This document shows positions 4,691 through 47,399 of a stretch of DNA of 48,622 nucleotides, one piece after another. Origin of the DNA: Shigella phage vB_Shig_1KOFFS; the sequence record PV615260, one strand, 5' to 3'. Under the pieces are notes generated by a model, which saw only the letters and a program-made list of their open reading frames with translations, had not been told where the DNA came from and searched no databases. A program made the translations under genes and the position numbers. Numbering within the stretch: position 1 is the first letter of the stretch; the number at the start of each line of letters is the position of its first letter.

Positions 4691-6259
4691 TTACCTCATG
4701 AACGACGGGTTGATAAAGACTTCGGAATCCATCACGCAGATAAAGCCTAATTCCTCCATCTTCGGCAATAAGCGTTCCTTAATCTTTTTGCTCACCCCAG
4801 CCTGGCCTTTGAAGATCTTCAGGTTGCGGCAGGCGTTATAAATGCCCTGGACGGTCATAACACCTTTTGCCTGCTTGCAACGACTGGCGATAACGTCATA
4901 CAGCGCTTTAATTTCCGCGCCCTCACCAGCAAATCCGGAAGAGTCAGCAGATGACAGGTAAGTTTTGCTCAACTCATGGAACATGATGATCGCTTCGTCA
5001 ATGGTTGCCGTGTCGATCTTCTTCGAACGCTTACCGCCGGGTTGCCAGTTCCGGATCGTGTGGATTACCGACGCCAGACGCATAACCTGCTTATCAAACT
5101 TACCCATCGCGCCGCGAAGCATAGTATGCGAATACTTGCCGCCGTCACCTAACTCAGGTTCTAATTCCTGGCGGGCCTTATTCAGTCTCCGCATTGCCGC
5201 GTCAGTAACCTGCAACTTAATGTTCGACTCGCTCATAATGTCATGAATCAGCCGGAAGTAATCCGCCTTCAGTGACTGGTCGATCGGCTCATAGGTCGAA
5301 TTCCCGTTTTCGTCGATGAACACGCGTTCGCCCAAACGTGTTTGCTCACGAACCAAAAGGAAACGCTCCGAGACACCGATCCCGCGAGAACCCGCTTGCA
5401 TGATGGCGTCGATGGTTTCATCCTGGGCAATTACGCAAATGCAGCCCAAAGCAACGAATGACATATTATTGCTAACGTCGGCACGAGCGATCGACACGTG
5501 GCCTTTATCCCATGCTTTGAGCACCAGTTCGCTGTTCGTCTTCTTGCCGCCATCGTTGCCATACGTGATCCCCAAAAGGCTGTTAACCGCAGTTGCCTCA
5601 TCGGAAATAACGGCAAAGTTTCCCTGGCGGTTGTTAATCTTCGCCAGACCTTCCGGGGTGGTATCGGATACCGGGAAAGTTAGGTCACACAATTTTTCAA
5701 GTTTCTCTTCCAGTTCGTCACGATCTTCGAAAAGTTTCACCATATCAGATTGCGACAACTCCCCTTTAAGCGCCTGCTTGTTGGCGGACAACTTCGCCAT
5801 GATTTTCTTACGCTCCTTCTTGCGCGACTCGTTAATGCGCTCGACTTCGGCCACGATCGGATCGATGGCCAGCGAGTTAATGGCAGACTTACCAGCGGAA
5901 GGCGGCTGCGACGTGATAACGTAAAGCGTCGTCGGTTGCTCACTGCCGTGATACTCGACCCAAAAGCGACCCATCATCGCGGCGGATACGGTTCCGAGAA
6001 AGTGCATGTAAGCGGATGATTCCGGGAACTGAACAGATCTGGCGGCATTGAGCGCCAGCTTGCCGACCACATCGTAATCATTGGCGATCGAGATTGTTGG
6101 GTATTTATCCGCGTTTACGTCGATATCTTTGGGCTTTGGCCAGAATGAAACGGAGTCACGATACCCGTTCGCACGAATCGCAACGCGCAGAGGACTGATC
6201 CCCTCCCTTTCTGCGATGGCGATAATATCTTGCGGTGATACGCGGTCATTTAAAAACAT
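4691..6259 (-). CDS. Large P-loop NTPase-like protein of unknown function (522 aa)
   Basis: Walker A-like PPSAGKS and Walker B-like AVISDEAT; RBS CAGGAGCAAGGG before ATG at 6259. Confidence 0.55.
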   Translation of the reverse strand: MFLNDRVSPQDIIAIAEREGISPLRVAIRANGYRDSVSFWPKPKDIDVNADKYPTISIANDYDVVGKLALNAARSVQFPESSAYMHFLGTVSAAMMGRFWVEYHGSEQPTTLYVITSQPPSAGKSAINSLAIDPIVAEVERINESRKKERKKIMAKLSANKQALKGELSQSDMVKLFEDRDELEEKLEKLCDLTFPVSDTTPEGLAKINNRQGNFAVISDEATAVNSLLGITYGNDGGKKTNSELVLKAWDKGHVSIARADVSNNMSFVALGCICVIAQDETIDAIMQAGSRGIGVSERFLLVREQTRLGERVFIDENGNSTYEPIDQSLKADYFRLIHDIMSESNIKLQVTDAAMRRLNKARQELEPELGDGGKYSHTMLRGAMGKFDKQVMRLASVIHTIRNWQPGGKRSKKIDTATIDEAIIMFHELSKTYLSSADSSGFAGEGAEIKALYDVIASRCKQAKGVMTVQGIYNACRNLKIFKGQAGVSKKIKERLLPKMEELGFICVMDSEVFINPSFMR

Positions 6260-7970: not shown

Positions 7971-8193
7971 ACTTTACACGCCCCAATGAACATTCTTTTC
8001 GATTCCAGCGTCAGCGTGACGCCATCCAGGGAGGACTGAATGAGGCGACTGCCAGGAACCGTCCCGATGATGTAGCGGCCTTTCGACTTCGTGATCGTGA
8101 TCTGAGTGAAGCCGGAGGCGCGTTTCATGCGGAGAACGACGCGGCCATGCGCGTTCAGGACGGAGAGAATGTAATCAGTCTTCGGATGGTTCA
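7967..8193 (-). CDS. hypothetical protein (about 75 aa)
   Basis: ATG at 8193 preceded by AAGGAG; ORF-track N-terminal extension lacks an RBS. Confidence 0.45.
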
Positions 8194-8265
8194 TTGTGTA
8201 GCTCCTTCGTTTGTTGGTGTGGGACAGTATGCCACTATCCAGCCATGTTGTTTTAGCAAAACGTG

Positions 8266-8643
8266 CTATGCCGGAACGCAGGTCGCGTAATCTTGGCTGA
8301 TGTAGATCGTGCGCTGAACGCGAGGTTCGAGATCTCCGAGTTCCTGGATGGTAACATCGTTGCTTCCTACCCGGCACGGAACCGATCCAAAGATAAACTC
8401 GCTAGTCTGCTTGTCGTTGATTTGCCATACATTACCGCCTTCCTTTTTGACAACCAGGAAAGGCGCACTGTCTGCACTGAACTCTTCCGGGCCACGACCG
8501 TAGTAATGCGTGATCGCAGCTTTGGCCGCAGCGCTGAAGGCATCGGTAACGTCATTGGTCGCCTTGTCGCGGATGGCCTTGATACGTTCTTCAGGCGATC
8601 CGATGATGTAGGAAAAGCTGTTCGAAATGGTAACTGTTCGCAT
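8266..8643 (-). CDS. hypothetical protein (125 aa)
   Basis: ORF with RBS GAGGT before ATG at 8643. Confidence 0.5.
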   Translation of the reverse strand: MRTVTISNSFSYIIGSPEERIKAIRDKATNDVTDAFSAAAKAAITHYYGRGPEEFSADSAPFLVVKKEGGNVWQINDKQTSEFIFGSVPCRVGSNDVTIQELGDLEPRVQRTIYISQDYATCVPA

Positions 8644-8882
8644 TATATTTTAACCTCGTTTTGGTGGATGAAGTCGGCGACGTAATGGCATTCGATCGGA
8701 TTCTCGATACCCGCCAGCACCTCGCACAACCCGTTATTCAGTAGCTGGCAATGCTGGCACTCCGCGCCGCCAACACTGGCAATGACAATGGCGATCCCGT
8801 TGCATGAACCGCCGAACATTCGATGAGGGAAGGGGTAAGCATCGCAGGTGCAAACCACCTCCCCGGCTCGCAGTTTCCTCAT
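8643..8882 (-). CDS. Cys-rich small protein (79 aa), possible zinc-binding
   Basis: Seven cysteines including CTC and CQHC clusters; ATG at 8882 overlaps upstream stop. Confidence 0.45.
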   Translation of the reverse strand: MRKLRAGEVVCTCDAYPFPHRMFGGSCNGIAIVIASVGGAECQHCQLLNNGLCEVLAGIENPIECHYVADFIHQNEVKI

Positions 8883-9073
8883 ACCTGACCCTTCTCGATG
8901 CAGAAAACCCAATCACGAGCGTCAACCGCAAAGCGTGCAACGCCGTCGAGCACCACGAAGACAGTAAACCAGTTGACGCCGCGACCCTTCTCGATATCGG
9001 TTACGGTACGGAACAGATCGCTTGCGCCATATTGAATTTTATCCCCGACGACTACATCCGCAAATGCTTTCAT
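8879..9073 (-). CDS. hypothetical protein (64 aa)
   Basis: ORF directly downstream of a regulatory cassette, RBS AGGAG. Confidence 0.5.
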   Translation of the reverse strand: MKAFADVVVGDKIQYGASDLFRTVTDIEKGRGVNWFTVFVVLDGVARFAVDARDWVFCIEKGQV

Positions 9074-9148
9074 GGTTAATCTCCTGACTGGTTTCGATGG
9101 GGTAACTATACCAGGCCTTTCGGCCCGGCGTTTAGCAATTCGTGCTTA
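9074..9148 (-). promoter_or_regulatory. Conserved promoter-like cassette (copy on - strand)
   Basis: Reverse complement reads TAAGCACGAATTGCTAAACG, hairpin ccgggccgaaaggcctgg, extended -10-like TGGTATAGT, then CCCCATCGAAAC. Confidence 0.5.
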
Positions 9149-9427
9149 TTTCACTGCTTTCTTCGCTGCCTTGTACGCCTCTTTGAAAGCCGGAACATCT
9201 TCGACCGGAATCCAGAAGCCGGAGCCATAGCCATCATCGTAGCAGGGGCATTGGTCGCAGTAGTCGCCCCAGGTTTTCTCTTCGCCGCCAACAGAGAAGC
9301 CAGTGGCCATTTCGCATAACGCCTCCTCAACCGCCTCGATCTTGTCGGCGTCGCTATCCATGATAACGAAGTTCCACTTGCCGTTATACTCGCTGCCAAG
9401 GTTGATTGATTCGCGTTGAAGTTTCAT
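9146..9427 (-). CDS. acidic small protein (93 aa), first gene of leftward operon
   Basis: Asp/Glu-rich composition with CDQCPC cluster. Confidence 0.5.
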   Translation of the reverse strand: MKLQRESINLGSEYNGKWNFVIMDSDADKIEAVEEALCEMATGFSVGGEEKTWGDYCDQCPCYDDGYGSGFWIPVEDVPAFKEAYKAAKKAVK

Positions 9428-9785
9428 AGCTTTAGACCCTTTGGCTCAATTCGTTTCGTTGAAGTCATCATAGCAAAGTCGATCGGGTGGCTTTTGACAA
9501 AAAATGCTATTCCTGCGATTGCTGATTATTCCACCGATTCGGAATAGTGGAATAGATGGTGATTGCACCTGATTCCCTGGTGATTAGTTTTGACGAATCA
9601 TGATTGCTTTTGATTGTTTCATTTTGCGCAATGACTTGGTGGAGTGTTTCATGATTTGCAACGAATTGCATAAATGTATGCACCATGCACGCAATTTGCC
9701 GATCGAAGCTGGCAGAACTGGAGTTGTGTTTCACCAACATTTACGCCGTGTGGGAGTGTGGGGGAGGGATAATCTTACCTAAAAA

Positions 9786-9897
9786 TTGCGCAAAAAGCGA
9801 CCAATATAAGCCCATATATAGATAGTAAGTATATGATAAATAATAATATTATTATTATTACTCTCTATCTTTATATATGTTTGGTAAGATTTCTCAG
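9786..9897. repeat. Inverted repeat copy A (about 110 bp, 47-bp AT-rich core at 9818-9864)
   Basis: Reverse-complement match to 42604-42715; the core atagatagtaagtatatgataaataa(t/c)aatattattattattactct differs at one position. Confidence 0.85.
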
Positions 9898-10014
9898 GGG
9901 AGGTTATGGATTCCTCTTGCGCAAGCCATAATTTTTAGATGTTCCGCCGCGAAAAAATGTATATATGGATATATGGGGGATGACAGCAAATCTTCCCAAA
10001 CACGCGCAAATCCT

Positions 10015-10043
10015 TTGACACCAAGGCTTGCGGCCAGTATTAT
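10015..10043 (+). promoter_or_regulatory. Sigma70 consensus-like promoter for the rightward early operon
   Basis: TTGACA at 10015-10020, 17-bp spacer, TATTAT at 10038-10043, about 50 bp upstream of ATG 10091. Confidence 0.6.
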
Positions 10044-10090
10044 CACCTTCCGAAACATTACCAAACGCCGTAAGTGTGGGGGAAACACAA

Positions 10091-10669
10091 ATGCAATACA
10101 AAGGCTATGAGTTCGAAGAAGTCGATGTGTCCGAGTGGATGCAGTACGACGCAGAAAAGCAGGCCGCGTACCATGAATGGCTGCAATCCATCACGTTTGG
10201 TGACACCACCAGGCCAGCAGGGCGGAGCCAGGAAGCCACTAAACCTGAAGGCACATTCACTGGCAACCGCTCTTCCGAGATCCGGCGCATGTTCCTGGAT
10301 GGCGGGCGGCGTATCCAGATGACGGCGGAGGAGTTCGCGGAGAAGTTCGGCGTTCATCCGGTCGACAACCATTTCCGCAGGCCGTTGCTGAAACTCCTGG
10401 AGCCGGGCGAGGTGTTGCGCGTGAGCCTGGGGGCGGGGTTAATCTCCGTCTTTACCGAGTTCGACGCAATGACTAGCTCAAACCTGGAGGTTGAGGCATA
10501 CAGGCGGCAGGGCGCTACCTCTGAGCGGGAAAGGATTAAGGGTTTAGTGGCCGCTCTTGCCGTAGACTTTGCCGGGGATGCTCTGGCCGGGATTTACAAG
10601 GCGAACTTGTTCGCGGCTATCGATCTTGGGTTGACCGCCAGCGATATCAGCCAGCACGGCAAGCAATAG
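10091..10669 (+). CDS. hypothetical early protein (192 aa)
   Basis: ATG at 10091 preceded by GGGGGA; ORF-track extension to 10028 would overlap the promoter. Confidence 0.55.
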   Translation: MQYKGYEFEEVDVSEWMQYDAEKQAAYHEWLQSITFGDTTRPAGRSQEATKPEGTFTGNRSSEIRRMFLDGGRRIQMTAEEFAEKFGVHPVDNHFRRPLLKLLEPGEVLRVSLGAGLISVFTEFDAMTSSNLEVEAYRRQGATSERERIKGLVAALAVDFAGDALAGIYKANLFAAIDLGLTASDISQHGKQ

Positions 10670-10741
10670 CACTTTTTGTTAAAACGCGATCGGGGTGGCT
10701 TGCTATAGTAACCCCATCGAAACGAACAACGGAGCACCACA
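10667..10741 (+). promoter_or_regulatory. Conserved promoter-like cassette
   Basis: TAGCACTTTTTGTTAAAAC, hairpin GGGGTggcttgctatagtaACCCC containing TGcTATAGT, then CCCCATCGAAAC and RBS GGAG. Confidence 0.55.
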
Positions 10742-11236
10742 ATGAAATCTCGCGAATACCTAAACACCCTTAATGGCCTTATCTACTGGCTGGAAGATGA
10801 CGCAGTGATGATGCGCAAGCGCGAAGGCAATATTGTGAAGAAGTCGAATATGGCAGCGGCGATCTTCTTTGCGATGGTCGGCAACGATACACTTCTGCTT
10901 GTCGAGGCGGAGCCGGAGCAAAAGAGCATGACCATGAACGAATTCTCTAACTTCCTGGCTGGCATCGACAAGAGCACCACGACTGCAACCGCACAGACGG
11001 CCATTCAGGGCGGAGCCACCCACATTGCCATCGACGGTAACGGCGACGTCTTCGCATTCAAGATGCGCCCGCGCCCCTGCCTGCCGGATGACGACGACGC
11101 GAATGACTACCTGGGCGAATGGCTTCGCGGGTCTGAGCAGTACGGCCACATTGCGCGAACAGTCTGCTTCCTTGGCAACACTGGCCGCGAGCACCGCAAC
11201 TGGCTGGAACTCTGCTTCCAGATCCCACAGCAATAG
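10742..11236 (+). CDS. hypothetical early protein (164 aa)
   Basis: ORF downstream of cassette; contains an acidic DDDDAND stretch. Confidence 0.55.
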   Translation: MKSREYLNTLNGLIYWLEDDAVMMRKREGNIVKKSNMAAAIFFAMVGNDTLLLVEAEPEQKSMTMNEFSNFLAGIDKSTTTATAQTAIQGGATHIAIDGNGDVFAFKMRPRPCLPDDDDANDYLGEWLRGSEQYGHIARTVCFLGNTGREHRNWLELCFQIPQQ

Positions 11237-11304
11237 CACTTTTTGCTAAAACACGATCGGGGTAACGCGGTATTATTACCCCATCGAAACAGAGGAGCAA
11301 AAAC
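11234..11304 (+). promoter_or_regulatory. Conserved promoter-like cassette
   Basis: TAGCACTTTTTGCTAAAAC, hairpin GGGGTAAcgcggtatTATTACCCC, CCCCATCGAAAC, RBS GAGGAG. Confidence 0.55.
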
Positions 11305-12192: not shown

Positions 12193-12386
12193 ACCAATTC
12201 GAATTCCTGGCGCGGGCGCACCGTGCGCTTGCAATGTACGCCTTCAGCAAGAACATGAAGATTATCAGTATTGAGGTTGAGTTCAACAATATCAGCATTT
12301 CCGGCTATGTTGGCGGCTCGTACCACGTTACAAAATTCAGCTTCCCATCGCTGGCCAGCCTGGAGCGTGAGGCGCTCGGTTTCTGA
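12189..12386 (+). CDS. hypothetical early protein (65 aa)
   Basis: ATG overlaps upstream stop. Confidence 0.45.
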   Translation: MNQFEFLARAHRALAMYAFSKNMKIISIEVEFNNISISGYVGGSYHVTKFSFPSLASLEREALGF

Positions 12387-12459
12387 ATAGCACTTTTTGC
12401 TAAACGCCCGGTCAGGAGATCGGGCATAATGGCCATACACCAAACAACGGAGATTAACC
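12387..12459 (+). promoter_or_regulatory. Conserved promoter-like cassette
   Basis: TAGCACTTTTTGCTAAAC directly after stop TGA, 22 bp, CATAAT, RBS GGAG. Confidence 0.5.
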
Positions 12460-13330: not shown

Positions 13331-13512
13331 AAGTAAGCAAAAAGAAACTCGCGCTGTATTGGGCCTTCTTCTTGGTTGGCCTGGCGCTGCATGATAATGT
13401 AGACTGGCATCCGGTCGGCATGATTTGCATCATCATCGGGTTATGCCGACTGTCAGAGATTGACGGGTTCCGCCGTGGATATAGGGCAGCGTTCAGCGGC
13501 GAAAAAAAATAG
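13327..13512 (+). CDS. small membrane protein (61 aa)
   Basis: Two hydrophobic segments (LALYWAFFLVGLAL and VGMICIIIGL). Confidence 0.45.
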   Translation: MKVSKKKLALYWAFFLVGLALHDNVDWHPVGMICIIIGLCRLSEIDGFRRGYRAAFSGEKK

Positions 13513-13591
13513 CACTTTTTGTTAAAACTGCCGTAACGTCATTTGATAAAGTGGCGTTACTGAAGTGAACAATCCAATCAGGAGCAACGCA
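13510..13591 (+). promoter_or_regulatory. Conserved promoter-like cassette (variant hairpin)
   Basis: TAGCACTTTTTGTTAAAAC, hairpin CGTAACG..CGTTAC, TGATAAAGT, RBS AGGAG. Confidence 0.45.
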
Positions 13592-17314: not shown

Positions 17315-17839
17315 ATGTCTGAAGAACGTAGAAAACGCGTAACGAAATCGCACTTTGCAGGCAACTTTAAAGCGCTATATGAAAAGGAGTTCGGCGTGGT
17401 ACTAGGGCGCACGGCAGAGATGACGCCGGAACAATTTTTTGATATCGCAAAGCGTTACTTCCAGTGGGCCGAAGATAACGCAATCAAGGCTGCGGAAACG
17501 GCAACGTTTCAGGGAGACGTTAACGAGTGGGGAGTGAACAAGCCGCGCATTTTTACTCTCACAGGGTTAAGCCTGTTTTGCGGCGTGAACCAGTCAACGC
17601 TTGGGCGCTACCGTCACGATCCCAACTATGCTCCCGTCATGGAGTTCATCGACTCCGTAATTTATGAGCAGAAATTTCAGCTTGCTGCCGTCGGCATGAT
17701 TAACGCTTCTTTCGTCGGAAAAGAGATGGGGATCGATAAGCCGCCAGTGCTTAACATCGACGCTATCGCCGGGGATAAGAACGAGATCACCGAGGAGAAG
17801 TTAGAGAAGGCAGTGACCAATATTCTTGATAAGCTGTAA
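17315..17839 (+). CDS. Terminase small subunit
   Basis: 174-aa ORF immediately upstream of the large terminase, first gene after the early terminator; RBS AAGGAGGG. Confidence 0.6.
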   Translation: MSEERRKRVTKSHFAGNFKALYEKEFGVVLGRTAEMTPEQFFDIAKRYFQWAEDNAIKAAETATFQGDVNEWGVNKPRIFTLTGLSLFCGVNQSTLGRYRHDPNYAPVMEFIDSVIYEQKFQLAAVGMINASFVGKEMGIDKPPVLNIDAIAGDKNEITEEKLEKAVTNILDKL

Positions 17840-42425: not shown

Positions 42426-42468
42426 TCTGCGGTTGGTCAAAAAATGAGCGAAATTTACGTAAGATTTA

Positions 42469-42484
42469 GTAAGATGCATCTTAC
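42469..42484. promoter_or_regulatory. Perfect 16-bp palindrome GTAAGATGCATCTTAC (operator-like)
   Basis: Exact self-complementary sequence read directly. Confidence 0.7.
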
Positions 42485-42603
42485 GTGGTTTTTTCCATAT
42501 ATTTCATAAAGTTAACGCAAATCGGTAAGATGGTAAGATCCCTATAGGTAAATATCCATGAAAAAACTGGCGCGAAATCCAGCGAAAAAAGACACGTACC
42601 ACG

Positions 42604-42715
42604 GAGAAATCTTACCAAGATAAGTATAGAGAGATAGAGTAATAATAATAATATTGTTATTTATCATATACTTACTATCTATGTATCGCGGTTAATTGGT
42701 TAAATTTTGCGCGAA
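42604..42715. repeat. Inverted repeat copy B (about 110 bp, 47-bp core at 42636-42682)
   Basis: Reverse complement of 9786-9897; core identical apart from one base. Confidence 0.85.
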
Positions 42716-42721
42716 ATTTAC

Positions 42722-42737
42722 GTAAGATTAATCTTAC
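42722..42737. promoter_or_regulatory. Perfect 16-bp palindrome GTAAGATTAATCTTAC (operator-like)
   Basis: Exact self-complementary sequence; shares the GTAAGAT half-site with 42469-42484. Confidence 0.7.
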
Positions 42738-42796
42738 TAAATCTTACCTAAAGTGGTTCGACCAGTTGCAAGCCACTGAATTTCAGGCATAAAAAA

Positions 42797-42825
42797 AGGT
42801 AAGACTGATTTTCTCAATCTTACCT
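42797..42825. promoter_or_regulatory. Inverted repeat AGGTAAGA-N13-TCTTACCT (operator-like)
   Basis: Same GTAAGA half-site in a wider-spaced inverted arrangement. Confidence 0.55.
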
Positions 42826-43805: not shown

Positions 43806-43883
43806 GTCGTTACCTCCAAATAAAAAACGCCTACACGAGAATGATAACCCGGCAGGCGTTTAGTGTTTAGACAAATTGTGCTA
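43806..43883 (-). promoter_or_regulatory. Conserved promoter-like cassette (- strand) upstream of primase
   Basis: Reverse complement reads TAGCACAATTTGTCTAAAC, then hairpin and TATCAT-like element, then RBS. Confidence 0.45.
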
Positions 43884-44282
43884 TCGGACTACGCGGAGCA
43901 TTTCCCGGCGGTCGCATCGGCGCGTAACTGGCTTGCCGTTGCTGTCAAACCTTAAATCTGGTCGGCAGAATGAGGCGCGGAAACCTTTGCAATTGTTCCG
44001 GCGGTAGCTCTTGTGTACGAGATAAGCGCCATCGGCTGAGATCATGCCTCGCTTGCGCCACTGCTGAACGACCTGGATGCTAACCCCCAACTCTTTTGCC
44101 GTTCCAGCGATGCCACCGAAGGCATCAATAACAAGCTCCATCCGCGCAGTCAACCCGGCGCGAACCTCATCCTTCAGTACGTAGTAACCAGTCGGGCGTT
44201 TGCGCTTCTTCTTGTCCTTTCCGCGAGATGTTCCATTGTTGCCGTTCAAAGTTCGCTTGTCTACCTTTGCCATTTGTTCCAT
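43881..44282 (-). CDS. HTH DNA-binding protein (Cro/YdaS-like), candidate transcription regulator
   Basis: Segment GTAKELGVSIQVVQQWRKRGMIS resembles Cro/YdaS-type helix-turn-helix; basic N-terminus. Confidence 0.55.
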   Translation of the reverse strand: MEQMAKVDKRTLNGNNGTSRGKDKKKRKRPTGYYVLKDEVRAGLTARMELVIDAFGGIAGTAKELGVSIQVVQQWRKRGMISADGAYLVHKSYRRNNCKGFRASFCRPDLRFDSNGKPVTRRCDRREMLRVVR

Positions 44283-44295
44283 AATTTAGCCCTCA

Positions 44296-44373
44296 TAGCA
44301 CTTTTTGTTAAACATGATAAAATATGCTATGTATTATACACGCAACCATGCTAATGACAAATTAGGATTGCAC
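44296..44373 (+). promoter_or_regulatory. Conserved promoter-like cassette
   Basis: TAGCACTTTTTGTTAAAC followed about 22 bp later by TATTAT, with an extended -10-like TGATAAAAT nearer the box. Confidence 0.45.
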
Positions 44374-44886
44374 ATGGCAAGCACAGAAGAAGACGTAGCA
44401 TATTTTAAGCGACTATTTCGTTATGAAGGCGGAACACTGATTCGCAAAGTTACAACCAGTAGTCGTGCATTCGCTGGCGACTCCGTAGGGTGCGAGAACA
44501 ACGCTGGGTATTTACAGGTAAGCGTAAAAAGCAAACCCCTATACGTTCACCGAATCATTTGGGAAATGCATAATGGGCCGATCCCAGAAGGAATGGAGAT
44601 AGATCATATCAATCAGGTCAGAACAGATAACAGAATCGAAAACCTGCGACTGGTAAGCCACAAAGGAAACCTTAAAAACCAATCAATGAACAGTGGCAAT
44701 ACTAGCGGGCAATCTGGCGTAAGCTGGTTTAAGCGAGGCGGGAAGTGGAGGGCAACAATAAAGGTTGACAGAAGGCAAATACACATTGGTTACTTCGCGT
44801 CGTTTGATTCGGCAGTTGCCGCACGAAAAGCAGCAGAAAAACAATACGGTTTTCATGATAACCACGGAGCAGAGAAAAAGAAATGA
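44374..44886 (+). CDS. HNH homing endonuclease with AP2-type DNA-binding domain
   Basis: HNH motif EIDHINQVRTDNRIENLRLVSHKGN and C-terminal AP2-like SGVSWFKRGGKWRATIKVDRRQIHIGYF. Confidence 0.75.
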   Translation: MASTEEDVAYFKRLFRYEGGTLIRKVTTSSRAFAGDSVGCENNAGYLQVSVKSKPLYVHRIIWEMHNGPIPEGMEIDHINQVRTDNRIENLRLVSHKGNLKNQSMNSGNTSGQSGVSWFKRGGKWRATIKVDRRQIHIGYFASFDSAVAARKAAEKQYGFHDNHGAEKKK

Positions 44887-46922: not shown

Positions 46923-47326
46923 TTACAGATAAAGGGGATTACCTCGAATATTACGGCGGGCCTGTAAAGGCTTGCCCGCTTGAGAAAATCGACCAGATGA
47001 ACAGCGTTTCGTGGCTGCGGCATGAATATCCTGATTATCTGTTTTGGCATACGGTTAACGAAGGGAGCAAGCACAAAGCGAGCGCGGTTATCGATCATCA
47101 AATGGGGTTGCTGAAGGGTGTTAGCGACATTCTGATCCTGATTGGGTTCGGTGGCAAATACCCGTTCGCAGCCATTGAGCTAAAGCGCCAGGGTAAGGCG
47201 CAGGCGTCGCCAGTGAGCAAGGAGCAAAGGGAATTCCTTGCTGCCGTCCGGCGTCGCGGCGGATTCGCCGCCGTGGCCTATGGCTTCGAGCAATTCAAGA
47301 TCGCTTTCTGCGATGCCATAAAATAG
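46919..47326 (+). CDS. VRR-NUC domain nuclease
   Basis: PD-(D/E)xK-like segments GVSDILIL and AIELK; GTG start after RBS GAGGAG overlapping helicase stop. Confidence 0.55.
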   Translation: MITDKGDYLEYYGGPVKACPLEKIDQMNSVSWLRHEYPDYLFWHTVNEGSKHKASAVIDHQMGLLKGVSDILILIGFGGKYPFAAIELKRQGKAQASPVSKEQREFLAAVRRRGGFAAVAYGFEQFKIAFCDAIK

Positions 47327-47399
47327 CACTTTTTGTTAAAACCGCCCGGCGAAAGCCGGGTATCATTTCCACATCGAAACAAAGAACGGAGTGTTGAAA
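47324..47399 (+). promoter_or_regulatory. Conserved promoter-like cassette
   Basis: TAGCACTTTTTGTTAAAAC, hairpin CCCGGCgaaaGCCGGG, TATCAT, CATCGAAAC, RBS GGAG. Confidence 0.5.

What the first reader, a model, noticed from the sequence alone, without database searches (positions are those of the whole stretch)
9428..10090. 660-bp gene-free control region with iteron-like repeats and the canonical early promoter
This divergent region carries repeated TGATTG/GATTG elements (about 9520-9640), the inverted repeat TTCCAC-N13-GTGGAA, direct GGAATAG repeats, the 47-bp AT-rich core and TTGACA-17-TATTAT. ORF-track reading frames here lack RBSs and look non-coding. It is a candidate replication origin and/or master regulatory region.
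Basis: partly seen in the sequence, partly recalled or inferred. Interest (0 to 1): 0.5.

Follow-up and report, generated by a model that had tools for sequence, protein, structure and literature searches.

The report
T1-like phage packaging-and-control region
This gene-free 663-bp stretch is the conserved control region of a T1-like Klebsiella phage, holding two divergent early promoters, the probable DNA-packaging start site, and one of two copies of an AT-rich, repeat-flanked module that is the best candidate yet for the unmapped replication origin of this phage family.

Summary
The window is a Webervirus genome (Klebsiella T1-like phage). Region 9428-10090 is non-coding, aligns base-for-base with relatives, and is conserved in blocks.

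It is a mosaic of DNA sites:
- A leftward early promoter carrying the family's known 21-nt ATAGCAC..TTGnTAAA element.
- Seven same-strand, helically phased TGATT repeats followed by an invariant TGCAA/TTGCA palindromic block. The T1 and Rtp records start next to a similar palindrome, and three Webervirus linear records end within this block. This is the probable pac site.
- The most AT-rich segment of the genome, bracketed by inverted GGTAAGAT sites.
- A conserved sigma-70 rightward promoter, TTGACA-17-TATTAT.

The AT-rich module (9770-9895) is duplicated, inverted, at 42604-42730. That copy lies among 11 GTAAGAT sites between the primase gene and the recE-erf-ssb genes.

T1, TLS and Rtp have the same two-locus arrangement, each with its own flanking motif. 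I infer paired origin-like modules, comparable to P4 ori/crr, SaPI ori or SPP1 oriL/oriR. A transcription-operator role is the main rival.

Novelty is a new member of a known kind. Interest is moderate.

The parts
9428..10090 (.). Whole divergent non-coding control region
   Evidence: RefSeq relatives annotate no gene here. None of five candidate reading frames tested is conserved. The alignment with 27 full-length relatives is collinear.
9467..9472 (-). -10 hexamer TATGAT (with TGn extension) of the leftward early promoter for the DUF5417 operon
   Evidence: Read from the sequence. Relatives carry TATAGT at the same column. The assignment is inferred; the transcription start is not mapped.
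9493..9510 (-). One copy of the Drexlerviridae 21-nt intergenic repeat (ATAGCAnnnTTGnnAAA-type)
   Evidence: Pattern search found 20 matches against 3.7 expected, and this copy has 2 mismatches. The repeat family is described for TLS, T1 and Rtp in PMC11447400. It lies 22 nt from the -10, as in six of the seven family copies read; the seventh has 20.
9505..9555 (.). GGAATA dyad: two inverted and two direct copies, near-invariant
   Evidence: Positions and counts. Conserved runs are 9505-9514, 9524-9533 and 9542-9555. The same arrangement occurs in T1.
9523..9656 (+). Seven same-strand, helically phased TGATT repeats; proposed small-terminase recognition part of pac
   Evidence: One search gives 7 copies here against a maximum of 2 elsewhere. 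The stretch is TGATT-rich at the homologous place in T1 and TLS. The T1, TLS and Rtp records start within or next to it.
9657..9700 (.). Invariant palindromic block TGCAAcgaaTTGCATAAATGTATGCA; proposed pac cleavage zone around 9673-9676
   Evidence: It contains a 16-nt run at 92% or more identity. The linear records P11 and AttikonH6 and contig L003 begin or end at 9673-9676. Position 1 of T1 and of Rtp abuts a similar TTGCA/TGCAA palindrome.
9724..9759 (.). Left arm of a 36-nt imperfect inverted repeat whose right arm is the 5'UTR at 10055-10090
   Evidence: Self-BLAST gives 81% identity over 36 nt. Its meaning is unknown.
9770..9895 (+). Copy 1 of the duplicated AT-rich module
   Evidence: It is 84% identical over 128 nt to 42604-42730 on the opposite strand. 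Both copies are present in all 25 paired relatives.
9771..9779 (-). Left bracket site AATCTTACC (GGTAAGATT on the minus strand)
   Evidence: It is invariant in relatives.
9806..9877 (.). AT-rich core; proposed DNA-unwinding element
   Evidence: It contains the most AT-rich 60-bp window of the genome. The blocks TAAGTATATGATA and TATTATTATTACTCT are invariant.
9883..9891 (+). Right bracket site GGTAAGATT
   Evidence: It lies in a 17-nt invariant run at 9878-9894.
9934..9950 (.). Conserved block TTTAGATGTTCCGCCGC of unknown role
9989..9997 (-). Degenerate site AATCTTCCC; every other sequence in the alignment has AATCTTACC
   Evidence: In several relatives the -10 of the rightward promoter is itself GTAAGAT.
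10015..10043 (+). Rightward early sigma-70 promoter TTGACA-17-TATTAT
   Evidence: Scan scores 11 of 12. CCTTTGAC is invariant, and the -10 varies as TATTAT, TAAGAT or TAATCT.
10055..10090 (+). 5'UTR with G-rich ribosome-binding site (GTGGGGGA) of the first early gene
   Evidence: Conserved runs at 10062-10070 and 10075-10083.
42604..42730 (-). Copy 2 of the AT-rich module
   Evidence: It holds the second most AT-rich 60-bp window in the genome.
42459..42823 (.). Cluster of 10 perfect and 1 near-perfect GTAAGAT sites, both orientations, on both sides of copy 2. It lies in the 495-bp gap between the primase 3' end and the recE-like gene.
   Evidence: All 8 GTAAGATT in the genome lie in the two intergenic regions.
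10091..10669 (+). First early gene; genus-specific protein with a predicted central winged-helix-like domain; one candidate site-binding protein
   Evidence: Model residues 60-124 have pLDDT 81-89 and an a-b-a-a-b-b topology. PDB matches are only weak and fall on winged-helix proteins. It is not homologous to the T1 gene at the same position.
4691..6259 (-). DUF3987 MCM-like replicative helicase with a C-terminal winged helix
   Evidence: Pfam match. The model has pLDDT 89. Foldseek top hits are MCM subunits. The literature agrees (PMC4889955).
42846..43805 (-). Primase with a P4-alpha-type N-terminal zinc ribbon
   Evidence: Pfam Zn_Ribbon_Prim. BLASTP against P4 alpha gives E 3e-11.
43881..44282 (-). 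Cro/YdaS-like helix-turn-helix protein of the replication module; another candidate site-binding protein
   Evidence: It is 53% identical to T1 gp23.
17315..17839 (+). Small terminase subunit; presumed reader of the pac repeats
   Evidence: 51% identical to T1 TerS.

Best explanation
The stretch is the conserved non-coding control region that T1-like phages carry between their two divergent blocks of small early genes. It acts as DNA, through a dense row of protein-binding sites. It does not act as a gene or a structured RNA.

From left to right it contains:
1. **Leftward early promoter.** The -10 is TATGAT, together with the family's 21-nt ATAGCAC..TTGnTAAA element.
2. **GGAATA dyad.**
3. **Probable pac site.** Seven TGATT repeats lie on one helical face, followed by an invariant TGCAA/TTGCA palindromic block. 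I propose the small terminase binds the phased repeats, the large subunit cuts near 9673-9676, and headful packaging runs rightward.
4. **AT-rich module.** About 70-90 bp, the most AT-rich in the genome, bracketed by inverted GGTAAGAT sites. This is one of two copies. The other copy (42604-42730) lies among 11 GTAAGAT sites between the primase and recE-erf-ssb genes.
5. **Rightward early promoter.** TTGACA-17-TATTAT, followed by its 5'UTR.

I infer that the AT-rich module is a replication-origin element. A phage-encoded sequence-specific protein would bind the short repeats. The AT core would melt, and the phage's MCM-like helicase and P4-type primase would be loaded there. The copy in the finding is the repeat-poor partner, comparable to P4 ori/crr or SPP1 oriL/oriR.

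**Shown:** the anatomy, conservation, duplication, family-wide recurrence and non-coding nature.

**Inferred:** promoter use, pac function and origin function.

**Sub-confidences:** divergent promoter region about 0.85; pac within 9520-9700 about 0.65; module is an origin element about 0.4-0.45.
For: **Non-coding, DNA-level constraint**
- None of the five candidate reading frames tested is conserved.
- RNAalifold finds no covariation on either strand.
- There are no Rfam or tRNA hits.
- The alignment is collinear and block-conserved.

**Promoters**
- The scan scores TTGACA-17-TATTAT at 11 of 12. The -35 is invariant and the -10 stays TAnnnT.
- The leftward element belongs to the known 21-nt repeat family.

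**pac**
- The TGATT cluster is unique in the genome and helically phased.
- The T1 record is linear, has its terminal repeat annotated from position 1, and starts inside the homologous stretch.
- TLS pac was mapped there by restriction analysis.
- The SU57 paper places the T1-like pac in this untranslated region.
- The Rtp record starts at the same relative place.
- In all three records position 1 lies 217-235 bp left of the AT-rich window.
- Records P11 and AttikonH6 and contig L003 end within 3 nt of each other, inside the invariant block.

**Origin-like module**
- The module is duplicated within the genome at 84% identity over 128 nt.
- The two copies are the two most AT-rich 60-mers in the genome.
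- GTAAGAT occurs 17 times against 3.7 expected, and 12 of those lie in the two gaps. All 8 GTAAGATT lie there.
- Both copies are kept in all 25 paired relatives.
- T1, TLS and Rtp show the same two loci, again the two most AT-rich windows of each genome. Core similarity within each genome is 75%/91 nt, 68%/123 nt and 83%/123 nt.
- Each genus has its own flanking motif: GTGTAACA (T1), GTGAACA/TGGAACA (TLS), TTCCGCGGAA plus GTTACGC (Rtp).
- The TLS motif matches 7 of 8 bases of the P4 type-1 iteron GGTGAACA.
- The phage encodes an MCM-like helicase with a C-terminal winged helix and a P4-alpha-type primase.
- No origin has been mapped for T1-like phages in the papers I could read.
Against: - No experiment shows initiation, protein binding, transcription starts or DNA ends in this phage.
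- The copy in the finding has only two perfect GTAAGAT sites plus one degenerate site. That is few for an iteron array.
- In several relatives and in T1 the genus-specific motif overlaps the -10 of the rightward promoter. That is what an operator would look like.
- Both module copies lie upstream of, and in the same orientation as, an operon. This also fits a transcriptional role.
- There are no DnaA boxes, and each core has only a 1-mismatch IHF-like site.
- The binding protein is not identified. Comparing gene 1, the HTH protein and the helicase winged helix across genera did not discriminate among them.
- Database record ends are indirect evidence for pac. Some were set by convention, such as the Roth phages.
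- The final TLS base assignment rested on resemblance to the P22 pac.
Confidence: 0.5

Rival explanations
1. The AT-rich module and its GTAAGAT sites are a transcription-control device, not an origin. An early phage DNA-binding protein, for example the winged-helix-like product of the first early gene, would bind the sites. It would switch the early-right operon and the recE-erf-ssb operon off or on. The AT core would serve as a promoter, an UP-like element or bent DNA.
For: - Both copies lie upstream of an operon and share its orientation.
- In many relatives the -10 of the rightward promoter is GTAAGAT, with a second site just upstream of the -35.
- In T1 the GTGTAACA motif overlaps the same promoter.
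- Weak promoter-like hexamers lie inside the core.
- Gene 1 is genus-specific, as the motif is, and its model has a winged-helix-like domain.
Against: - Eleven sites spread over 365 bp on both sides of the AT core is more than operators usually need.
- The cores have no convincing -35/-10 pair conserved across copies.
- The cores lie 170-250 bp upstream of the recognisable promoters.
- The window's own lineage has lost both promoter-proximal sites yet keeps the core brackets.
Confidence: 0.3
2. The AT-rich module is part of the packaging signal. On this reading it works like the P1 pac site, where short repeats flank a bend site, rather than having a replication role.
For: - It lies about 150-200 bp from the presumed cut.
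- GGTAAGATTTCTC resembles the P22 pac core AAGATTTATCTG as quoted in the TLS paper.
- Each core has a 1-mismatch IHF-like site.
- Several database records begin or end inside the core.
Against: - A second full copy 33 kb away lacks the TGATT cluster. It would imply a second pac, but the TLS restriction data as reported describe one pac fragment, and the T1 record has a single annotated terminal repeat starting at position 1.
- Record and contig ends inside the core are explained by assembly breaks at the 128-nt inverted repeat.
- Fragment contigs of 32-34.6 kb match the distance between the two cores. For two of them both ends were checked and lie at or near the cores, and one still carries Nextera adapter at both ends.
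Confidence: 0.08
3. The region encodes a small protein or a structured or regulatory RNA that accounts for its conservation.
For: - Mechanical ORFs of 32-77 aa exist, and some submitters annotate them.
- GGGGAGG-tt-ATG at 9897-9908 opens a 10-codon micro-ORF that is kept in the closer relatives.
Against: - Frames and lengths are not conserved.
- The micro-ORF start is lost in the diverged relatives, and its spacing to the ribosome-binding sequence is only 2 nt.
- RNAalifold covariation terms are about 0 on both strands.
- Rfam gives only sub-threshold noise.
Confidence: 0.05
4. The duplicated module is a small mobile or selfish element of the miniature inverted-repeat type, with 9-bp terminal inverted repeats and no function for the phage.
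For: Perfect 9-bp inverted ends AATCTTACC...GGTAAGATT flank a unit of about 120 bp, and two copies are present.
Against: - The same two genomic positions are occupied in four genera, each with a different end motif.
- Extra copies of the motif lie outside the unit.
- No further copies occur elsewhere in the genome.
Confidence: 0.02

Closest known systems
Satellite phage P4 ori plus crr (type-1 iterons TGTTCACC bound by the alpha primase-helicase)
   Same: - Both have two separate cis regions that share one short repeat in both orientations.
- One region lies in a divergent promoter gap, and the other lies just 3' of the primase gene, as in this window.
- In both the repeats flank AT-rich DNA.
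- The phage primase shares the alpha N-terminal zinc ribbon (E 3e-11).
- The TLS version of the motif (GTGAACA) matches the P4 iteron in 7 of 8 bases.
   Different: - Here the helicase is a separate MCM-like DUF3987 protein. BLAST finds no similarity to alpha beyond the primase zinc ribbon.
- The Webervirus motif GGTAAGAT matches the P4 iteron only 4 of 8.
- A conserved ~128-nt module (AT core plus bracket sites) is itself duplicated.
- Adjacency to primase is not kept in T1, TLS or Rtp.
- Function is untested.
SaPI/PICI replication origins (two sets of short iterons flanking an AT-rich stretch, next to pri-rep). This is recalled from my own knowledge of Ubeda et al. and not re-read here.
   Same: The architecture matches: short 6-8 bp repeats on both sides of an AT-rich segment of about 80 bp, with repeat sequence specific to each element.
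   Different: - A virulent phage, with two copies.
- No demonstrated Rep binding.
- The copy in the finding has only 2-3 sites.
Bacillus phage SPP1 oriL/oriR. This is recalled from my own knowledge of Missich et al. 1997.
   Same: Both are pac-type siphoviruses with two distant origin regions. The regions share initiator-binding boxes next to AT-rich DNA, and replication is linked to recombination.
   Different: - The proteins are unrelated.
- SPP1 oriL lies inside a gene.
- Nothing here has been tested biochemically.
pac regions of T1, TLS and other T1-like phages
   Same: The position is homologous, in the untranslated gap between the two early gene blocks. The sequence blocks are homologous too: the 21-nt repeat, the GGAATA dyad, the TGATT-rich stretch and the TTGCA palindrome. 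The record starts of T1, TLS and Rtp fall here.
   Different: No pac sequence has been defined functionally in any of them. The TLS assignment used resemblance to the P22 pac. The phased TGATT array is strongest in Webervirus.
Drexlerviridae 21-nt intergenic repeat aaATAGCACnnnTTGnTAAAA (TLS paper, 2024)
   Same: The copy at 9493-9510 matches with 2 mismatches. [quoted passage not shown]
   Different: Its function is still unknown. In six of seven copies read it sits a constant 22 nt from a -10-like hexamer (20 nt in the seventh), usually with a G+C-rich hairpin in between.

Membership tests
Iteron-type phage or satellite replication origin (P4, SaPI, SPP1 kind) | AT-rich, easily melted segment | tested here: met
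   The window at 9823 scores 52 of 60 A+T, the highest in the genome. The second copy is the runner-up. The same holds in T1, TLS and Rtp.
Iteron-type phage or satellite replication origin (P4, SaPI, SPP1 kind) | Several copies of a short repeat flanking the AT-rich segment | tested here: inconclusive
   The finding's copy has 2 perfect GTAAGAT sites and 1 degenerate site. The partner locus has 10 perfect and 1 near-perfect site on both sides of its core. The feature is clearly met at 42459-42823 and only weakly met inside the finding.
Iteron-type phage or satellite replication origin (P4, SaPI, SPP1 kind) | Element encodes a cognate initiator, helicase or primase | tested here: met
   The phage encodes an MCM-like DUF3987 helicase with a C-terminal winged helix and a P4-alpha-type primase. 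It also encodes two further DNA-binding candidates. Which protein binds the repeats is unknown.
Iteron-type phage or satellite replication origin (P4, SaPI, SPP1 kind) | Initiator binds the repeats and replication starts there | not testable with these tools
   This needs footprinting or ChIP, plus marker-frequency or 2D-gel mapping.
pac site of a headful-packaging phage | Positionally homologous to the mapped first-headful end of relatives | tested here: met
   The T1 record is linear with its terminal repeat from position 1. TLS pac was mapped by restriction analysis. Position 1 of the T1, TLS and Rtp records lies 217-235 bp left of the AT-rich window, which corresponds to window 9588-9606.
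pac site of a headful-packaging phage | Physical DNA ends of this phage map here | tested here: inconclusive
   There are no reads for this phage. Linear records of three relatives end at 9673-9676. Other record ends reflect convention or assembly breaks.
pac site of a headful-packaging phage | Clustered recognition repeats for the small terminase | tested here: met
   Seven phased same-strand TGATT repeats form a cluster unique in the genome. Binding by TerS is inferred.
Sigma-70 promoter | -35 and -10 hexamers at 17±1 bp spacing, conserved in relatives | tested here: met
   The site at 10015-10043 scores 11 of 12. The -35 is invariant and the -10 keeps TAnnnT. The transcription start is not mapped.
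Drexlerviridae 21-nt intergenic repeat | Match to aaATAGCACnnnTTGnTAAAA, oriented with transcription, about 76 nt before a start codon | tested here: met
   The copy lies at 9493-9510 on the minus strand with 2 mismatches. It is 66-83 nt from the ATG at 9427. The definition comes from PMC11447400.
Structured RNA (any Rfam family or new) | Covariance-model hit or compensatory base changes | tested here: not met
   There are no hits at gathering score, only noise at E of 0.1 or more, and covariation terms of 0.76 and 0.01 kcal/mol.
Protein-coding gene | Reading frame kept in relatives | tested here: not met
   All five candidate frames vary in length from 1 to 110 aa and shift frame among 27 relatives.

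The most novel reading that the evidence does not exclude
T1-like phages (Drexlerviridae) may replicate from a two-site origin system that has been overlooked. It would consist of two copies of a conserved AT-rich unwinding module, one beside pac and one in the replication-recombination gene block. Each copy would be flanked by genus-specific short repeats read by a fast-evolving phage DNA-binding protein. That protein could be the winged-helix-like product of the first early gene, which would also auto-regulate the rightward early promoter. The two sites would cooperate as P4 ori and crr do.
Probability: 0.3. Interest if true: 0.65.

Novelty: new member of a known kind. Interest (0 to 1): 0.5.

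Why it matters
T1 is one of the seven classical coliphages, and its relatives are now common phage-therapy candidates against Klebsiella. Even so, the papers I could read state that no origin or iterons have been found in this family. Only GC-skew guesses exist.

The paired AT-rich modules and their genus-specific bracket motifs give two precise places to test, each under 150 bp. A short list of candidate binding proteins comes with them.

The analysis also narrows the probable packaging start to a ~40-bp invariant block. That is useful for orienting genomes and for thinking about transduction risk.

It also explains a practical nuisance. Short-read assemblies of these phages break at the 128-nt inverted repeat, which produces 32-35 kb fragments and arbitrary record starts.

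Tried and rejected
- **Coding ORFs.** Five candidate frames were translated in 27 relatives, and none is conserved.
- **Structured RNA.** Rfam was searched at gathering and at E-value thresholds. tRNA and tmRNA scans found nothing. RNAalifold on 14 diverse sequences, both strands, showed no covariation.
- **Host-factor sites.** There are no DnaA boxes within 1 mismatch. Each core has only one 1-mismatch IHF-like site, and GATC is not enriched.
- **TTCCAC/GTGGAA as a hairpin or palindrome.** Relatives change one arm without compensation.
- **Record ends in the AT core as physical termini.** These are rejected in favour of assembly breaks. The 32-34.6 kb fragment contigs match the core-to-core distance; two were checked at both ends, and one contig keeps Nextera adapter at both ends. 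Roth phage starts were set by convention.
- **Sequence search of helicase and primase against solved structures.** Nothing was found.
- **BLASTP of the helicase and the HTH protein against P4 alpha.** No similarity.
- **Co-variation of the motif with candidate binders across four genera.** Uninformative. Every conserved candidate is 39-73% identical across the genera, and gene 1 is too divergent to compare.
- **Fold search of the gene-1 model.** Only weak matches, best E 0.06.
- **Literature.** I found no T1-like transcription-start maps or origin mapping. The T1 and Rtp genome papers are not held.
Full report
**What the window is.** The 901 bases around the finding match 316 phage records, almost all Klebsiella phages of the genus Webervirus (Drexlerviridae, T1-like), at up to 96% identity. 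The window is about one genome long. The gene order matches T1-like phages:
- a minus-strand block of small early genes ending at 9427;
- a plus-strand block of small genes starting at 10091 and running into the terminase and structural genes;
- a replication-recombination block around 40-47 kb.

**Checking the observation.**
- TGATT occurs seven times on the plus strand between 9523 and 9656. No other 150-bp window of the genome has more than two.
- From 9560 onward the spacings are 10, 11, 20, 10 and 41 bp, so the copies share one face of the helix.
- All three GGAATAG copies in the genome lie here.
- The spacer between TTCCAC and GTGGAA is 12 nt, not 13. Relatives change one arm without compensation. 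The conserved feature is really a dyad of four GGAATA units.
- The 60-bp window at 9823 is the most AT-rich in the genome.
- TTGACA-17-TATTAT at 10015-10043 scores 11 of 12.

**Non-coding, and constrained as DNA.** I collected 31 related loci through the downstream gene and two annotated records.
- The intergenic region aligns in 741 columns for 721 nt, even against relatives only 71-78% identical.
- Conservation is block-wise, with many near-invariant runs of 8-17 nt.
- Left of about 9445 similarity is lost in the diverged relatives, which carry a different flanking gene.
- None of five candidate reading frames is kept. Lengths range from 1 to 110 aa and frames shift.
- Rfam gives nothing, and there are no tRNAs.
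- RNAalifold on 14 diverse sequences gives weak energies and covariation terms near zero on both strands.
- The constraint is therefore on DNA sequence, which points to protein-binding sites.

**The two promoters.**
- On the right, CCTTTGAC is invariant. The -10 varies as TATTAT, TAAGAT or TAATCT, always TAnnnT, and is followed by a conserved 5'UTR and a G-rich ribosome-binding site.
- On the left, the minus strand reads GGAATAGCATTTTTTGTCAAA-N19-TGcTATGAT (22 nt separate the TTGTCA hexamer from TATGAT). This belongs to a family found before many early genes.
- That family is the 21-nt repeat aaATAGCACnnnTTGnTAAAA described for TLS and noted in T1 and Rtp. Its function is an acknowledged open question.
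- Promoter use is inferred. I found no transcription-start data for any T1-like phage.

**Packaging site.**
- The T1 record is linear, annotates its terminal repeat from position 1, and begins inside the homologous gap.
- The TLS paper maps pac to the same gap by restriction analysis of the submolar fragment. It fixed the exact base only by resemblance to the P22 pac.
- The SU57 paper states that the T1-like pac lies in this untranslated region.
- In T1, TLS and Rtp, record position 1 lies 217-235 bp left of the AT-rich window. That corresponds to window 9588-9606, inside the TGATT array.
- Two linear Webervirus records from different submitters (P11 and AttikonH6) and an IMG/VR contig (L003) begin or end at 9673, 9674 and 9675-9676. 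They agree within three bases but not exactly, as independent end determinations would. All fall inside the invariant block TGCAACGAATTGCATAA|ATGTATGCA.
- Position 1 of T1 abuts GTTGCAtggtgTGCAAC, and position 1 of Rtp abuts TTGCAcgtataGCAA.
- I therefore read the TGATT array plus the palindromic block as pac. The small terminase would bind the phased repeats, and the cut would fall near 9673-9676.
- This is indirect evidence. Some record starts are conventions.

**The duplicated AT-rich module.**
- Self-comparison shows that 9770-9895 recurs, inverted, at 42604-42730 with 84% identity over 128 nt.
- The second copy lies in a 495-bp gap between the 3' end of the primase gene and the recE-like, erf and following genes.
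- The two copies are the two most AT-rich 60-mers of the genome.
- Copy 1 is bracketed by AATCTTACC and GGTAAGATT. Copy 2 lies among ten perfect and one near-perfect GTAAGAT sites, in both orientations, on both sides.
- GTAAGAT occurs 17 times against 3.7 expected. All eight GTAAGATT lie in these two gaps.
- All 25 relatives for which both loci were retrieved keep both copies, with the same invariant blocks.

**The same plan in other genera.** T1, TLS and Rtp represent three other subfamilies. In each, the two most AT-rich windows of the genome are again the pac-side gap and the gap upstream of the recE-erf-ssb genes.

| Genus | Core similarity within the genome | Flanking motif |
|---|---|---|
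| Webervirus (window) | 84% / 128 nt | GGTAAGAT |
| T1 | 75% / 91 nt | GTGTAACA (4 of 4 genome copies in the two gaps) |
| TLS | 68% / 123 nt | GTGAACA / TGGAACA |
| Rtp | 83% / 123 nt | TTCCGCGGAA (5 of 5) plus GTTACGC |

A conserved architecture with a changing recognition motif is what one expects of sites read by a diverging phage protein.

**What the module most likely does.**
- The phage has its own replication proteins. These include a DUF3987 helicase whose model (pLDDT 89) resembles MCM subunits and ends in a winged helix. This agrees with Kazlauskas et al. 2016.
- It also has a primase whose N-terminal zinc ribbon matches P4 alpha at E 3e-11.
- The papers I could read say that no origin or iterons have been found, or offer only GC-skew guesses.
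- P4, checked in its annotated record, has exactly this logic. Eight-base type-1 repeats (TGTTCACC) flank AT-rich DNA in an ori placed in a divergent promoter gap, and a second repeat-rich region (crr) lies just 3' of the primase-helicase gene.
- The TLS motif GTGAACA matches the P4 repeat in 7 of 8 bases. The Webervirus motif does not (4 of 8).
- I therefore favour an origin role, with the finding's copy as the repeat-poor partner. I put this at about 0.4-0.45.

**The main rival.**
- The motif also overlaps the rightward promoter. In many relatives the -10 is GTAAGAT, with another site upstream of the -35. In T1, GTGTAACA overlaps the same promoter.
- The first gene behind that promoter is genus-specific. 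Its model has a central a-b-a-a-b-b domain of good local confidence. The only fold matches, all weak, are to winged-helix DNA-binding proteins.
- The sites could thus be operators of an early regulator.
- The two readings are not exclusive, because plasmid initiators bind both iterons and their own promoters.
- I could not identify the binder. Comparison across genera did not discriminate.

**Rejected readings.**
- *A packaging role for the AT core.* This is unlikely, because a second full copy lacks the TGATT array.
- *Record ends inside the core as physical termini.* These are assembly breaks. Fragment contigs of 32-34.6 kb match the distance between the two cores. For two of them both ends were checked and lie at or near the cores, and one still carries Nextera adapter at both ends.
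- *A mobile miniature element.* The same two positions are occupied in four genera.

**Verdict.** The region is the known pac/early untranslated region of T1-like phages and holds a known repeat family. The paired, motif-bracketed AT-rich modules are not described in any paper I could read. They make the long-missing origin of this family directly testable.

Noticed in passing
window 9075-9150 (-), 9445-9514 (-), 10662-10726, 11228-11290, 12385-12445, 13508-13570, 47322-47390 (+): Seven copies of the 21-nt repeat family were read. In six the TTGnTA part sits a constant 22 nt from a -10-like hexamer; the copy at 13508-13570 has 20 nt. This is too far for a normal -35. The spacer usually holds a G+C-rich hairpin, and CATCGAAAC often follows. 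This looks like a dedicated early or middle promoter class, or a combined terminator-promoter.
   Followed up: partly
window 9724-9759 and 10055-10090: A 36-nt imperfect inverted repeat (81% identity). The sequence left of the AT module is an inverted, degenerate copy of the 5'UTR and ribosome-binding region of the first early gene, but no start codon follows it.
   Followed up: no
window 9989-9997 and 10037-10043, compared with relatives L009, L022, L025-L027 and L032: The window lacks both promoter-proximal GTAAGAT-type sites that several relatives have. It reads AATCTTCCC instead of AATCTTACC, and the -10 is TATTAT instead of TAAGAT. Close relatives such as L001 and L004 keep the upstream site but also have TATTAT. 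The two sites that bracket the AT core are retained throughout.
   Followed up: partly
window 10091-10669 and homologues P0121-P0221: The first early protein is modular. Two unrelated N-terminal domain types and two alternative C-terminal modules of about 45 aa occur in different combinations among relatives.
   Followed up: partly
loci L018/L036, L029/L061 and L033 (IMG/VR contigs of 32-34.6 kb): These fragment contigs match the distance between the two AT cores. L018/L036 and L029/L061 were checked at both ends and end at or near the cores; for L033 only contig length and the locus-1 side were seen. L018 and L036 still carry Nextera adapter sequence at their ends. This is a data-quality issue, and it explains arbitrary genome starts.
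   Followed up: yes
window 44305-44886 (+): An HNH endonuclease gene with a weak AP2-like domain sits between the HTH regulator gene and the SF2 helicase gene. The T1 annotation shows no gene between the corresponding regulator (gp23) and helicase (gp22).
   Followed up: no
window about 9445 and leftward: Similarity to the diverged relatives stops abruptly at the left edge of the control region. Those relatives carry a different first leftward gene, and DUF5417 is absent or lies farther away. This suggests cassette exchange at the boundary.
   Followed up: partly
window 9624, 9786 and 9917: The palindromic octamer TTGCGCAA occurs three times in the 663 bp, out of 7 in the genome against 2.7 expected. 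The copy at 9786 lies in the duplicated module, where copy 2 has TCGCGCAA.
   Followed up: partly
window 8000-10000: The cumulative GC-skew minimum falls next to the region. It coincides with the switch in transcription direction, so on its own it says little about replication.
   Followed up: no
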